Part shown: positions 19,629 to 57,906 of the stretch, in pieces
How positions within the stretch are numbered: the first letter of the stretch is position 1
How the letters are laid out: every line of letters starts with the position of its first letter
NCBI GenBank assembly: GCA_964016885.1
Contig: OZ024741.1
Coordinates: forward strand, 44,516,001 to 44,580,000
Length of the DNA stretch: 64,000 bases
Reading direction: 5' to 3'
Source: Eledone cirrhosa
Taxonomy: Eukaryota
Position numbers and translations under genes: made by a program
Notes under the pieces: generated by a model
Database searches by the model: none
The model's input: the letters and a program-made list of their open reading frames with translations, nothing else
What the model was told of the DNA's origin: nothing

Positions 19629-20713
19629 TCATTATCTATAAAAGGCAGATTGTTGTTGTTGTGTGTGTGTGTGCATGTTCCATGTTTATACATTTGCACA
19701 ACTTCAAACCGATTCGACTCAACGTCTGTAAGAATGTTGCAATGGTCTAACTTTGGTCAACGACTATTTATATCATTCAAACTCACCCACAATTATGGAA
19801 ATAATCGATAAAACTAAATACATGACGCTTTACCCTTCTAATAGAATCTGATTACCTCTGTCTACTCCCCTTAAAATTCGATAAAACTACATACATGCTT
19901 ACAAACCTTCTTTAGGAACGCCGAAGAGAGAGAGAGAGAACGTTTGGTTTTGAGTGTGGAACGGTCAAACATTTATTTACTTCTAATGACAAAGAGAACT
20001 TATTACATTTCATACGAAACAACAATTATTCAAAAGCAACGGATAAATTTATTCAACAACAAACAAAATAGCGATAAATATTTTTTAAAACCTCTCAACG
20101 AACGTGGAAGAAAGAAGTATCAGTTTATTTACTATACACAATAATATACTCTATGAGGTCACTAAACCTGCTAGAAACAGCAGCTAACTCTCCCCCATAT
20201 CACACCCCTCCCTACTGTCTTAAATTTAGAAAACATATCCTCTATGAGGTCACTAAACCTGCTAGAAACAGCAGCTAACTCTCCCCATATCACACCACTC
20301 CCTACTGTCTTAAATTTAGAAAACATATCCTCAATGAGGTCACTAAACCTGCTAGAAACAGCAGCTAACTCTCCCCCTATCACACCACTCCCTACTGTCT
20401 TAAATTTAGAAAACACACATTAGACAACCATACAGAACAAGTCCATCGCAGCACTGTTGTGCGGCTGGTATCGTGTACGCGCTTTTTGCGTAAGTACTGT
20501 GAAACAATACATTTCAACACTTCTTTGCACAGAGATAATATCCATAGGCGAAACTACAATTGTCACTGCTGGAGCAGCTCCTGCTTCGGCAGTCCAGGTT
20601 TGCAATTCATTCACCCAGTGCCTGACAGACAAAAAAGTGCTACCATAAAATGGGTGTTGCAACCTAACTTTGGTAACTTACTGACCCCGAGCATCGCCGG
20701 GGTTTAATGCTAG
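19629..20713 (+). mobile_element. Non-autonomous Helitron
   Basis: 5' TC (tcattatctataaaaggcag followed by a GT-rich repeat). 3' hairpin ccccg-agcatcgc-cgggg, then CTAG. Inserted between A and T, no TSD. Confidence 0.7.
20149..20415 (+). repeat. ~90-bp minisatellite, 3 copies, inside the Helitron
   Basis: Units start at 20149, 20240 and 20330. Confidence 0.9.
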
Positions 20714-51109: not shown

Positions 51110-51166
<57 letters not shown>

Positions 51167-51239
51167 TACGTTATTCCGGGTTGAATCGGAGGTAACCACA
51201 GTAAGTAAGGTACTCAATACTACATAGCAGAGTATAAAA

Positions 51240-51318
51240 GTTTTAATATAGATGAGATTCCCTGATGATTTCTAAAGGATGAAACAGTTCTAGTCCTGTA
51301 GAATCTCATCTATATTAA

Positions 51319-51321
<3 letters not shown>
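51240..51321 (+). ncRNA. Hammerhead ribozyme closed by a ~21-bp inverted repeat
   Basis: gttttaatatagatgagattc-c-CTGATGA-t-ttc-taaa-gga-t-GAAA-cag-ttctagtc-ctg-TA-gaatctcatctatattaaaac. Confidence 0.75.
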
Positions 51322-51372
<51 letters not shown>

Positions 51373-52218
51373 AGGGGGTGTAACTAGGAGATTACTGCAG
51401 GTTCACCCGGGAGAGCACTCGATGTTTAGGTTCACTTCTGTGATGAGGTGTAGAGCTATACAGAGTGTAATACATTGAAAGGATAACAAGGACGATTGAT
51501 TACTCCTTCATTGCATTTATTGATAGGTGATGCGCGTTGCGCCACTGATCAGCTCAAGGTTCGATCTGTATCAATCCTACCCGACTCAATAATCGGCAGC
51601 TGGACGGACCCTCTTAAAATGCTATAAGAAAATGAAATACATGCTATGTGGTAAAGTCAGTTTCAAGAGTTTGACAAAATGAGTTCTTTTGATTGGTGGG
51701 AAGGATCAAGGGTATGTACTGGCCTGTAGTGTATATGATGGTGAGATGTTGGTGACGGTTGGTGGATGAGATGGGCTGTGGTGTGGTGGTGGTGGGTTGG
51801 CCTTGGCGTGTAGAGTATATGGGGGTGGATGTGATGATATGATGGTGGTTATGGTCGCTTACTGGGGTAGGCTGTGGTATCAGGTTAGCGGATTGTCGGT
51901 AGACGGGTTGGCGTGTGTGAGGGTGTGGTAGTGGTGTTGTTGTTTATGGTAGTGGCGTTTGTGGTGGTGAGTGGATGTGTTGGTGGTGTCAAGTCCTTAC
52001 GGAGATACATAGCTAGACGCTCTTCTTCTGACAAATATGTTGCTTATATGTATACACACACACATGTATATATGCGCACATATATTGTTGTATAAACAGA
52101 CACAAAACACATTCGCACACCCTTGCGATTTTTATCTGCAGAATGACCCCAGAATAACAAACGATACGCTGATATATAGAAAACACTCCCCGATGACTAA
52201 TCTATGTATCATACATAG

Positions 52219-52334
52219 AAAATGTATCATACCTAAACTGTTCCTAAATTCCTCGACTACGTAGTTTCGTGGCATAAACAAAAACAATATATCAAAGATA
52301 TAGAGTCCTTGCGAGGTCTGCCGACTTATCAAGA
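52219..52334 (-). mobile_element. Inverted partial unit at the 5' end of the 591-bp array
   Basis: Reverse complement of the HHR-containing segment 52880-52995. Confidence 0.85.
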
Positions 52335-52876
52335 ATTGTTTTTGTTTATTCCACGAAACTACGTAGTCGAGGAATTTAGGAACAGTTTAGGTATGATACA
52401 TTTTATTACTAATTATATCTAAATGTTTCTTCTCTCTTCATAATGTATTTTTAACTCTGATACTGGTTCAGTCTGGTTCAAACTGAATTGGTCTGTCCCA
52501 GTCATTCATTGAGCAACATCGGTGAAGTTGGCACCCTTAACTCACAGTTGGGTGCGGATGCATTCATGTATATATGTGTGTGTCCGCATGTATCTGTGTG
52601 TTTCTAAATGTATTAATAACTCCCTCTGGTCGAGCAATCTTTGAAGTGTGGGGACAACTGGAAAGCTTCCATTACTCATACTTCTCGCCTTCTTCACTAC
52701 CTCTTCTGCGGCCTCGATATGAATACCCCCTCCGCCTCCGTGGTATTTTTTTCGTGGTTATAGGAGGCTTAGCTCTGTTTCTCGACCGTTATATCGCGTG
52801 ACTATCTCCCCCTCCGCCTTTTGGGATTCTTTCTCACGTCGTGTAGACGCGTTCTTGAGACTAGTAAAATGAGGTA

Positions 52877-52964
52877 TCCTCTTGATAAGTCGGCAGACCT
52901 CGCAAGGACTCTATATCTTTGATATATTGTTTTTGTTTATGCCACGAAACTACGTAGTCGAGGA
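52877..52964 (+). ncRNA. Hammerhead ribozyme, UUGAUAA core (array copy 1)
   Basis: tcctc-TTGATAA-gt(c)ggca-[44 nt]-tgccac-GAAA-ctacgtag-TC-gagga. Confidence 0.8.
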
Positions 52965-53467
52965 ATTTAGGAACAGTTTAGGTATGATACATTTTATTAC
53001 TAATTATATCTAAATGTTTCTTCTCTCTTCATAATGTATTTTTAACTCTGATACTGGTTCAGTCTGGTTCAAACTGAATTGGTCTGTCCCAGTCATTCAT
53101 TGAGCAACATCGGTGAAGTTGGCACCCTTAACTCACAGTTGGGTGCGGATGCATTCATGTATATATGTGTGTGTCCGCATGTATCTGTGTGTTTCTAAAT
53201 GTATTAATAACTCCCTCTGGTCGAGCAATCTTTGAAGTGTGGGGACAACTGGAAAGCTTCCATTACTCATACTTCTCGCCTTCTTCACTACCTCTTCTGC
53301 GGCCTCGATATGAATACCCCCTCCGCCTCCGTGGTATTTTTTTCGTGGTTATAGGAGGCTTAGCTCTGTTTCTCGACCGTTATATCGCATGACTATCTCC
53401 CCCTCCGCCTTTTGGGATTCTTTCTCACGTCGTGTAGACGCGTTCTTGAGACTAGTAAAATGAGGTA

Positions 53468-53555
53468 TCCTCTTGATAAGTCGGCAGACCTCGCAAGGAC
53501 TCTATATCTTTGATATATTGTTTTTGTTTATGCCACGAAACTACGTAGTCGAGGA
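53468..53555 (+). ncRNA. Hammerhead ribozyme (array copy 2)
   Basis: Same as copy 1. Confidence 0.8.
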
Positions 53556-54058
53556 ATTTAGGAACAGTTTAGGTATGATACATTTTATTACTAATTATAT
53601 CTAAATGTTTCTTCTCTCTTCATAATGTATTTTTAACTCTGATACTGGTTCAGTCTGGTTCAAACTGAATTGGTCTGTCCCAGTCATTCATTGAGCAACA
53701 TCGGTGAAGTTGGCACCCTTAACTCACAGTTGGGTGCGGATGCATTCATGTATATATGTGTGTGTCCGCATGTATCTGTGTGTTTCTAAATGTATTAATA
53801 ACTCCCTCTGGTCGAGCAATCTTTGAAGTGTGGGGACAACTGGAAAGCTTCCATTACTCATACTTCTCGCCTTCTTCACTACCTCTTCTGCGGCCTCGAT
53901 ATGAATACCCCCTCCGCCTCCGTGGTATTTTTTTCGTGGTTATAGGAGGCTTAGCTCTGTTTCTCGACCGTTATATCGCGTGACTATCTCCCCCTCCGCC
54001 TTTTGGGATTCTTTCTCACGTCGTGTAGACGCGTTCTTGAGACTAGTAAAATGAGGTA

Positions 54059-54146
54059 TCCTCTTGATAAGTCGGCAGACCTCGCAAGGACTCTATAACT
54101 TTGATATATTGTTTTTGTTTATGCCACGAAACTACGTAGTCGAGGA
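54059..54146 (+). ncRNA. Hammerhead ribozyme (array copy 3)
   Basis: Same as copy 1, with one substitution in the stem II insert. Confidence 0.8.
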
Positions 54147-54649
54147 ATTTAGGAACAGTTTAGGTATGATACATTTTATTACTAATTATATCTAAATGTT
54201 TCTTCTCTCTTCATAATGTATTTTTAACTCTGATACTGGTTCAGTCTGGTTCAAACTGAATTGGTCTGTCCCAGTCATTCATTGAGCAACATCGGTGAAG
54301 TTGGCACCCTTAACTCACAGTTGGGTGCGGATGCATTCATGTATATATGTGTGTGTCCGCATGTATCTGTGTGTTTCTAAATGTATTAATAACTCCCTCT
54401 GGTCGAGCAATCTTTGAAGTGTGGGGACAACTGGAAAGCTTCCATTACTCATACTTCTCGCCTTCTTCACTACCTCTTCTGCGGCCTCTATATGAATACC
54501 CCCTCCGCCTCCGTGGTATTTTTTCCGTGGTTATAGGAGGCTTAGCTCTGTTTCTCGACCGTTATATCGCGTGATTATCTCCCCCTCCGCCTTTTGGGAT
54601 TCTTTCTCACGTCGTGTAGACGCGTTCTTGAGACTAGTAAAATGAGGTA

Positions 54650-54737
54650 TCCTCTTGATAAGTCGGCAGACCTCGCAAGGACTCTATATCTTTGATATAT
54701 TGTTTTTGTTTATGCCACGAAACTACGTAGTCGAGGA
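54650..54737 (+). ncRNA. Hammerhead ribozyme (array copy 4)
   Basis: Same as copy 1. Confidence 0.8.
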
Positions 54738-55240
54738 ATTTAGGAACAGTTTAGGTATGATACATTTTATTACTAATTATATCTAAATGTTTCTTCTCTC
54801 TTCATAATGTATTTTTAACTCTGATACTGGTTCAGTCTGGTTCAAACTGAATTGGTCTGTCCCAGTCATTCATTGAGCAACATCGGTGAAGTTGGCACCC
54901 TTAACTCACAGTTGGGTGCGGATGCATTCATGTATATATGTGTGTGTCCGCATGTATCTGTGTGTTTCTAAATGTATTAATAACTCCCTCTGGTCGAGCA
55001 ATCTTTGAAGTGTGGGGACAACTGGAAAGCTTCCATTACTCATACTTCTCGCCTTCTTCACTACCTCTTCTGCGGCCTCGATATGAATACCCCCTCCGCC
55101 TCCGTGGTATTTTTTTCGTGGTTATAGGAGGCTTAGCTCTGTTTCTCGACCGTTATATCGCGTGACTATCTCCCCCTCCGCCTTTTGGGATTCTTTCTCA
55201 CGTCGTGTAGACGCGTTCTTGAGACTAGTAAAATGAGGTA

Positions 55241-55328
55241 TCCTCTTGATAAGTCGGCAGACCTCGCAAGGACTCTATATCTTTGATATATTGTTTTTGT
55301 TTATGCCACGAAACTACGTAGTCGAGGA
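55241..55328 (+). ncRNA. Hammerhead ribozyme (array copy 5)
   Basis: Same as copy 1. Confidence 0.8.
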
Positions 55329-55562
55329 ATTTAGGAACAGTTTAGGTATGATACATTTTATTACTAATTATATCTAAATGTTTCTTCTCTCTTCATAATG
55401 TATTTTTAACTCTGATACTGGTTCAGTCTGGTTCAAACTGAATTGGTCTGTCCCAGTCATTCATTGAGCAACATCGGTGAAGTTGGCACCCTTAACTCAC
55501 AGTTGGGTGCGGATGCATTCATGTATATATGTGTGTGTCCGCATGTATCTGTGTGTTTCTAA

Positions 55563-55623
<61 letters not shown>

Positions 55624-57400: not shown

Positions 57401-57719
57401 AGGGAGATAAGAAATGTACTGGGCATATTCAATGCACATGAAGCGACAGAATAATCCGGCATTTCGCGTACTGTCCCTTCAATTGGGGAACTGTTCCTGG
57501 ACATTTAGTATTGAATTGTATTATAATCATGCCCATACTGAATTGTTATCATGATTACTTTTATTCTTATATCTACTGGCTTTCGTTTATTGAGATTCCT
57601 TACAATTTATTCAATGTAAACCACATTCCGTGTTGTTTTTCGTCCTTATATTTTACATAATGTCTTGAGCCATAGTGACCAATAAACTGAATCATTATTA
57701 GACGTAGAATTCGATTATC

Positions 57720-57906
57720 GGTGGATTGGCAGTATCGGTAGAGGGTCGGACGCCATGCTTTCCAGCATAGTTACGTCCCTTTATGATCTGAGTTCAAATC
57801 CCGCCGAGGTTGACTTTGCCTTTCATCTTTACGGGGTCGATAAAATAAAGTACCAGTAATGCACTGGGTATTTGCTGGCTTTGTGCCTAAAGTAGAAACA
57901 ATTATT
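57720..57906 (+). mobile_element. tRNA-derived SINE with a Nin-like core and 17-bp TSD
   Basis: A box TGGCAGTATCGG, B box GAGTTCAAATCC, core gcctttcatctttacggggtcgataaaataaagtaccag. attatt(a/g)gacgtagaat occurs at 57694 and 57901. Confidence 0.85.

What the first reader, a model, noticed from the sequence alone, without database searches (positions are those of the whole stretch)
52219..55568. Young 591-bp tandem array is a candidate retrozyme with a variant UUGAUAA hammerhead in each unit
Seen: ~5.5 nearly identical head-to-tail units. Each folds into a type I HHR with stem I tcctc/gagga, core TTGATAA, a bulged stem II holding a 44-nt insert, GAAA, a palindromic stem III (ctacgtag) and a GUC triplet. 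The array has an inverted partial unit at its 5' end, ends in (TA)n and has no credible ORF. Known: metazoan non-LTR retrozymes are tandem HHR repeats whose transcripts self-cleave into monomers, form circular RNAs and are thought to be mobilised by PLEs. Those I recall are mostly under ~400 nt with a CUGANGA core. Inference: this is one recent insertion copied from a circular or repeatedly re-primed 591-nt RNA.
Basis: partly seen in the sequence, partly recalled or inferred. Interest (0 to 1): 0.85.

Follow-up and report, generated by a model that had tools for sequence, protein, structure and literature searches.

The report
Hammerhead retrozyme with paired insertion ends
This is one young copy of a 591-base non-coding repeat that carries a predicted self-cutting hammerhead RNA and sits thousands of times in TA microsatellites of this animal genome; it is likely a new member of the known 'retrozyme' parasites, and its copies suggest that a borrowed Penelope-type enzyme copies one small, probably circular, RNA from two fixed start points.

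Summary
Observation confirmed: 5.47 head-to-tail 591-bp units (99.5-100% identical), a 116-bp inverted arm, and a type I hammerhead motif with U3:A8 core in each full unit. It is a dispersed family: 7,202 exact hammerhead-pattern hits. Across subfamilies 70-82% identical to this unit, the fold is kept by compensatory changes in stems I and III and a predicted pseudoknot. Insertions end at two fixed sites, A and B, 165 nt apart, joined to (TA)n. Of 68 inverted two-arm insertions, 63 have one A and one B end, none AA or BB, 5 atypical, including this one. Neptune-like Penelope elements here show the same footprint. Units within an insertion share one haplotype and unit-specific variants are not inherited, which points to a single-unit, probably circular template. 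Cleavage, expression, circle and partner enzyme are untested. Unit size, U3:A8 core and two start sites are each already in print. The scan noted this family and pattern before on other DNA. Verdict: new member of a known kind with a useful mechanistic footprint.

The parts
52219..52334 (-). Inverted arm, U267-382; holds core, stem II and stem III but only 2 nt of the 5' strand of stem I; its outer end is atypical (not site B, no TA run)
52335..55568 (+). Direct arm: partial unit U313-591 plus five full 591-bp units, ending at site A
52877..52964 (+). First complete type I hammerhead motif (U3:A8 core 52882-52888; GAAA 52946-52949; predicted cut 52959|52960); repeated at +591, +1182, +1773, +2364
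52896..52939 (+). 44-nt stem II insert: internal loop plus two-part hairpin kept mostly by wobble changes
   Evidence: helix 4, 94.6% of cells paired
52870..52902 (+). Predicted pseudoknot 52870-52875 with 52897-52902 (5' flank of stem I with the stem II loop)
   Evidence: helix 98.5% paired; outer pair UA 23, UG 8, CG 3, broken 0 of 34
52949..52958 (+). Self-complementary stem III (10 nt); predicted intermolecular helix -12.9 kcal/mol, as in dimer-acting hammerheads
   Evidence: palindrome kept with a double change in the oldest subfamily
53020..53039 (+). Site B (U426): one of two fixed 3' insertion ends of the family, 80 nt after the predicted cut; internal only in this copy
   Evidence: (2,843 B-(TA)n junctions), 66
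53135..53204 (+). Long conserved hairpin followed by site A (U591), the other fixed 3' end; used at 55568 in this copy
55566..55621 (+). (TA)n then (AG)n microsatellite at the 3' junction; inferred target site

Best explanation
The array is one recent insertion of a dispersed, non-coding 591-nt repeat family, likely a retrozyme mobilised by a Neptune-like Penelope element, whose predicted hammerhead would cut tandem transcripts into one-unit RNAs that probably circularise. Inferred cycle: (1) an array is transcribed; (2) hammerheads, likely acting as a dimer through the palindromic stem III and braced by a pseudoknot, release a monomer that is ligated; (3) a PLE RT-endonuclease, likely a dimer, cuts a (TA)n tract and primes cDNA internally at site A and/or site B, both of which end in AAUGUAU or AAUAUAU and can pair with a TA end; (4) RT rolls round the template and drops off at a roughly constant rate, giving tandem arms; (5) when both DNA ends prime, one uses A and the other B on the same RNA, and the two cDNAs join at their inner ends, mostly through a few shared bases, giving head-to-head arms. 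Shown: copy number, fixed ends, A/B pairing, shared haplotype, structure-preserving changes, coexisting PLEs with the same footprint. Inferred or untested: transcription, cleavage, ligation, the partner, the dimer. Odds: PLE-mobilised retrozyme about 0.9; circular monomer as template about 0.65.
For: 7,202 exact hammerhead-pattern matches, reversed control 0; 2,843 B-(TA)n junctions; 176 A-(TA)n junctions for the youngest variant alone. Of 117 parsed insertions 68 are two-armed: 63 AB, 0 AA, 0 BB, 5 atypical (one AB pair is a local duplicate); among loci not chosen by an end 39 of 43 AB, among A-chosen loci 24 of 24; 12 of 12 two-arm cases among 20 B-chosen loci, read by eye. Single arms end at A (13) or B (19) in the end-unbiased set, so both sites work alone. 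Arms share family variants in 327 of 356 comparisons against 800 of 21,675 for random pairs. In 75 young multi-piece insertions, 120 unit-specific variant events give only 3 alleles seen in more than one insertion (about 5 expected by a rough simulation), while 90 fixed events fall on 41 alleles. 293 of 299 crossings of the cut site are unchanged, with 1 indel in 2,392 covered bases. Arm lengths fit an exponential (KS p=0.29, n=64), up to 4,255 bp. Consensus differences between two subfamilies: 2 of 43 hammerhead positions against 95 of 537 elsewhere (p=0.03), and the two are one compensatory stem I pair; that pair is UA 48, CG 26, UG 20, GA 1 in 95 distinct sequences. Circular plus strand z=-5.2, minus strand z=-1.6 against 40 shuffles. 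RT + GIY-YIG ORFs with a CX4CxxC linker in 5 of 7 examined, U3:A8 cores in the 3' UTRs of four families and one near plus one far end in 5 of 5 two-arm PLE insertions where both ends were seen, read by eye.
Against: No cleavage, expression or circle data. No Rfam hammerhead match. No PLE with nucleotide similarity to the unit in 50 GIY-YIG loci, so donor and partner are unknown. 5' ends are not enriched at the cut site (5 of 175 within 5 nt, 3.3 expected), which fits a circle but equally an uncut RNA. In vitro, an anole PLE used uncut RNA and did not need its hammerhead (PMC11167929); 8 of 9 Xenopus retrozyme dimers did not cleave (10.64898/2026.07.22.740005). The sample is about 117 of some thousands of insertions and is enriched for long, hammerhead-intact copies, so parent-daughter pairs may be rare. 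Inner junctions are mirror-like more often than chance (6 of 63 within 10 nt, 2.2 expected), which leaves room for fold-back synthesis of some second arms. Covariation counts sequences, not independent events: three subfamilies only.
Confidence: 0.68

Rival explanations
1. Same PLE parasite, but the template is an uncut linear read-through transcript of a tandem array; the hammerhead acts later or not at all.
For: Uncut RNA was the main substrate for an anole PLE in vitro and no RNA-seq reads ended at its hammerhead site (PMC11167929). Clean junctions and no 5' pile-up at the cut fit this too.
Against: Unit-specific variants are not passed on while fixed variants are; 36 private variants are fixed in all units of 18 insertions, 24 across both arms; a multimer offers several A and several B sites, yet AA and BB are absent; arrays would only shorten over generations (inference).
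Confidence: 0.16
2. The template is a cut linear monomer that RT copies again and again by jumping from its 5' end to its 3' end.
For: Also gives a single-unit bottleneck; 4 of 175 5' ends lie within 3 nt of the cut, 2.1 expected.
Against: Junctions at the cut site are essentially free of indels, whereas end-to-end jumps usually leave scars (general knowledge of non-LTR RTs, recalled); sites A and B lie only 245 and 80 nt from the monomer's 5' end, yet no drop-off is seen there.
Confidence: 0.1
3. Short insertions were expanded afterwards into minisatellites by unequal crossing-over or slippage.
For: Proposed as a route in 10.64898/2026.07.22.740005; would also homogenise units.
Against: 78 of 117 sampled insertions have an arm longer than one unit, in both arm types; length decay shows no step at one unit; arrays are very young (0.18% within, 0.74% between).
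Confidence: 0.05
4. The array is an assembly duplication.
For: Units are near-identical; no long reads were laid.
Against: Units differ by private substitutions; dozens of other loci have the same build; contigs of run X1 show the head-to-tail joint and TA loose ends at 53039 and 53204 (X1 may be the source sample).
Confidence: 0.01

Closest known systems
Metazoan non-LTR retrozymes (PMC7229834, passages read; 10.64898/2026.07.22.740005, parts 1-3 of 5 read)
   Same: Non-coding tandem units, one type I hammerhead per unit, GC under 45%, thousands of dispersed copies, coexisting PLEs; 591 bp is inside the reported 51-972 bp range.
   Different: U3:A8 core, 44-nt stem II insert with a predicted pseudoknot, strict (TA)n targeting and paired A/B ends were not seen in the parts of these papers that I read; circular RNA is shown there and untested here; no homologous pLTR found here.
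Endonuclease-bearing PLEs, Neptune clade and the 'tail' signature (PMC8557442 and PMC3846280, passages; PMC11167929, parts 1-2 of 4)
   Same: Microsatellite targeting, tandem plus inverted 5'-truncated arms, a tail at one end only, two internal RT start sites downstream of the hammerhead.
   Different: No ORF; tail of 165 nt rather than 30-40; one-A-one-B use counted here as 63 of 63 canonical cases, whereas in vitro no strand difference in start site was seen.
PLE hammerhead variants (PMC4209133, parts 1-2 of 4) and pseudoknotted hammerheads (PMC3088659, passages)
   Same: U3-A8 covariation, short palindromic stem III read as dimer-acting, bulged stem II, G10.1-C11.1 pair; stem I-stem II pseudoknots are common in natural hammerheads.
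   Different: The combination of U3:A8, a 4-pair palindromic stem III, a long stem II extension and a pseudoknot in one motif; activity not measured.
Non-autonomous Chlamys elements such as MRC1 (PMC8557442, passage)
   Same: Non-autonomous PLE-type elements with multicopy head-to-tail insertions.
   Different: Those share 3'-end sequence with autonomous partners and mostly lack hammerheads; none such partner was found here.

Membership tests
Non-LTR retrozyme | Head-to-tail non-coding units, at least two with a complete type I hammerhead | tested here: met
   five complete motifs, longest frame 86 aa
Non-LTR retrozyme | Dispersed multi-copy family | tested here: met
   7,202 pattern hits; copies on many contigs
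Non-LTR retrozyme | Self-cleavage and circular RNA in vivo | not testable with these tools
   needs bench work; indirect support only
Non-LTR retrozyme | Sequence relationship to a PLE pLTR | tested here: inconclusive
   no similarity in 50 GIY-YIG loci, out of 150 scored matches and 10,597 candidates; same layout hammerhead-near end-far end
Type I hammerhead ribozyme | Core nucleotides with a 3:8 Watson-Crick pair, GAAA, UH cut site, three helices | tested here: met
   U3:A8 core, GUC; 96.3% of cells paired, 0 of 500 shuffles as high
Type I hammerhead ribozyme | Match to an Rfam hammerhead model | tested here: not met
   no hammerhead family at E<=1; the long insert and variant core may explain it (inference)
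Type I hammerhead ribozyme | Catalytic activity | not testable with these tools
   in vitro assay needed
PLE-mobilised element | Two fixed 3' ends, tail at one end only, inverted 5'-truncated arm | tested here: met
   63 AB, 0 AA, 0 BB of 68 two-arm insertions
PLE-mobilised element | Recently active RT + GIY-YIG partner with the same target | tested here: inconclusive
   Neptune-like families at 97-99% amino-acid identity, TA-targeted; specific partner not assigned
Autonomous PLE | RT-endonuclease ORF | tested here: not met
   no ORF over 86 aa; no tblastn hit of three PLE proteins in the window

The most novel reading that the evidence does not exclude
The family is a genome-scale record of how Penelope-type enzymes transpose: an RT-endonuclease dimer binds one monomeric RNA circle made by a pseudoknotted, dimer-acting U3:A8 hammerhead, primes from both ends of a cut (TA)n tract at two obligatorily different sites, and rolls round the circle twice over. 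This would explain the PLE tail, the inverted arms and the tandem arrays by one mechanism and give the hammerhead a required role in vivo.
Probability: 0.45. Interest if true: 0.75.

Novelty: new member of a known kind. Interest (0 to 1): 0.5.

Why it matters
How PLEs and retrozymes form tandem and inverted insertions, and whether the hammerhead and an RNA circle are needed, is open: one in vitro study found the ribozyme dispensable (PMC11167929), others propose circular templates (PMC4209133, PMC7229834). A 591-nt, very young, high-copy element with two mapped start sites, a one-A-one-B rule and a single-unit inheritance bottleneck is a compact substrate on which circle, linear monomer and multimer can be told apart, by computation on thousands of insertions and in a reconstituted reaction. 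Ribozyme searches that demand CUGANGA and a short stem II would miss the family.

Tried and rejected
Rfam scan: no hammerhead hit, only low-score microsatellite-driven matches. Donor search: short-stem II relatives by pattern gave only family copies; no unit similarity in 50 GIY-YIG loci beyond one nested copy; a GIY-YIG next to two old units (L277) is a nested insertion into another PLE's TA tail, not a donor; no PLE ORF continuous with the unit in 20 B-chosen loci. A possible AA insertion (L143) had no second arm of 40 bp or more. 5' ends at the cut site: no enrichment. Equal arm lengths: no correlation (rho 0.16, p 0.2). Sequencing runs: no RNA holder listed; 8 of 20 holders were laid; X1 is deep, X6 (same organism code) moderate, the six others depth about 2-13 outside the simple repeat, which cannot separate contamination, diet or true presence, so no claim of spread between species; a closed 591-nt contig in X4 and one X16 contig starting at 52960 are not evidence of a circle or of cleavage. 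Host taxon was not determined; a search for 'hammerhead ribozyme' + 'octopus', prompted by a recalled resemblance of flanking repeats, listed nothing relevant. Searches for a prior description of the paired-end rule in retrozymes listed none, but subscription papers and supplements were not seen; Lunse et al. (PMC5785218) is not held and only its title was seen. One pair in the structure given to (columns 28-85) was misplaced by a gap and carries no information.

Full report
OBSERVATION. The array is as described. With unit U = 52614-53204, the window holds an inverted arm at 52219-52334 (U267-382) and a direct arm at 52335-55568 (U313-591 plus five full units, 5.47 units, 99.5-100% identical), followed by (TA)n(AG)n. 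No frame exceeds 86 aa. Each full unit has stem I TCCTC/GAGGA, core TTGATAA (U3:A8 in place of C3:G8), a bulged stem II with a 44-nt insert, GAAA, a self-complementary stem III and GUC; the predicted cut is 52959|52960. Rfam finds no hammerhead here.

IS THE RIBOZYME FOLD REAL? Catalysis is untested, but the fold looks selected. The genome (3.0 Gb) holds at least three subfamilies: the young one, one about 81% identical and one 70-76% identical. Between the first two, consensus differences hit 2 of 43 core and stem positions against 95 of 537 elsewhere (p=0.03), and those two are the partners of one stem I pair, seen as UA 48, CG 26, UG 20, GA 1 in 95 distinct sequences. On 34 aligned copies 96.3% of cells pair, 0 of 500 shuffles reach that, and slid controls give 35-48% (relatedness inflates such tests). 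The insert's first bases pair with the 5' flank of stem I as a 6-bp pseudoknot whose outer pair is UA 23, UG 8, CG 3, never broken; stem I-II pseudoknots are known to speed natural hammerheads (PMC3088659, passages). The oldest subfamily keeps a palindromic stem III with a double change; it was first seen in a locus chosen by its end, then 53 times by pattern. The circularised plus strand folds far better than shuffles (z -5.2), the minus strand hardly (z -1.6); 3' of the cut, 4 of 55 predicted pairs show double changes and many show wobble changes.

FAMILY AND INSERTION FOOTPRINT. An exact hammerhead pattern matches 7,202 times (reversed control 0). I parsed 117 insertions: 50 regions from the first 100 listed hits, 10 regions and 14 non-redundant loci, 40 regions from the first 100 of 176 hits, and the window. 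This set favours long, hammerhead-intact copies. 3' ends fall at A (U591) or B (U426), both ending in AATGTAT or AATATAT, and 173 of 178 abut TA runs. B-(TA)n junctions number 2,843. Sixty-eight insertions are two-armed, head to head: 63 AB, 0 AA, 0 BB, 5 with an atypical end, the window's among them (two AB rows are one duplicated locus). The rule holds without end-based choice (39 of 43), in A-chosen loci (24 of 24), in B-chosen loci (12 of 12 by eye), and is visible in the older subfamilies (with a few atypical cases). Single arms use either site. Inner junctions mostly abut or overlap by a few bases; 5' ends are not enriched at the cut (5 of 175 within 5 nt, 3.3 expected). Contigs of run X1 show TA loose ends at exactly 53039 and 53204.

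TEMPLATE. Both arms carry the same haplotype (327 of 356 against 800 of 21,675). Young units differ by 0.19% within an arm, 0.17% across arms and 0.74% between insertions. Thirty-six private variants are fixed in all covering units of 18 insertions. In 75 young multi-piece insertions, unit-specific variants are not shared beyond chance (3 alleles, about 5 expected) while fixed ones recur (90 events, 41 alleles). So each array appears to start from one unit's sequence (inference). RT crosses the cut site cleanly (1 indel in 2,392 bases) and arm length decays roughly exponentially with no step at one unit. A ligated monomer explains all of this most simply, and has just one A and one B site, which would force the AB rule. 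Against: the circle is not observed; an anole PLE used uncut RNA in vitro (PMC11167929); a slight excess of mirror-like junctions allows fold-back for some arms; parent-daughter pairs may be rare in my sample.

PARTNER. GIY-YIG search gave 150 scored matches of 10,597 candidates. Twenty long-frame loci hold several RT + C-terminal GIY-YIG families, five of seven examined with the CX4CxxC linker that PMC8557442 (passages) ascribes to Neptune and Nematis. Four families have U3:A8 cores; they sit in TA runs and, in 5 of 5 two-arm cases with both ends seen, have one near and one far end (by eye). None resembles the unit in sequence, so the partner is unassigned.

COMPARISON. It works like, and by the testable features is, a non-LTR retrozyme (PMC7229834, passages; 10.64898/2026.07.22.740005, parts 1-3 of 5: units 51-972 bp, PLE origin proposed). 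U3-A8 cores, palindromic stem III and a circular template are in PMC4209133 (parts 1-2 of 4). The tail at one end and inverted arms are in PMC8557442 and PMC3846280 (passages), and two internal start sites with a predicted dimer in PMC11167929 (parts 1-2 of 4). I found no paper counting the one-A-one-B rule or the single-unit bottleneck; supplements and subscription papers were not seen. Earlier notes of this scan, seen after my reading was set, describe this family (e1-9530444) and the same pattern in other families; their caution that ends alone do not prove a circle prompted. They are not independent support.

VERDICT. The value lies in the insertion statistics, which make the PLE and retrozyme transposition mechanism directly testable.

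Noticed in passing
window 51371-52126 (-): 3' part of another abundant repeat (5,333 first-look candidates, 89-95% identity) whose copies also end at two points about 95 nt apart and form inverted pairs; ends in (TA)n at 51322-51370.
   Followed up: partly
window 51165-51321: Short fold-back piece of another TA-flanked element with a CTGATGA...GAAA core, present in many fetched loci.
   Followed up: no
window 52120-52218: Fragment of a further repeat (92% to L172) directly left of the array; its last bases repeat 11 nt of the inverted arm's end, suggesting a repair-type junction.
   Followed up: partly
window 6212 (+), 14838 (+), 18842 (+), 43633 (-), 30276 (-): Other hammerhead-like motifs from a relaxed scan of the window; some may be chance.
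   Followed up: no
window 57719-57906: High-copy 187-bp interspersed repeat matching dozens of fetched loci at 75-97%.
   Followed up: no
L123, L125, L126, L129, L140, L142: Several Neptune-like PLE families with long ORFs; four carry U3:A8 hammerhead cores with a palindromic stem III in the 3' UTR, and all seen ends join TA-rich microsatellites.
   Followed up: partly
L149: A private variant alternates between units (absent, present, absent, present, absent), as a dimeric template would give; one case only.
   Followed up: no
L277 (G000:C23): Old-subfamily array nested in the TA tail of a truncated Neptune-like PLE.
   Followed up: yes
unit positions U96-165 (52709-52778): 5' truncation points cluster here (43 of 175 in two 30-nt bins), in a GC-rich hairpin region; possible RT pause or TA-like microhomology.
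   Followed up: no
window 20144-20445: 90-bp tandem repeat, about 3 copies.
   Followed up: no
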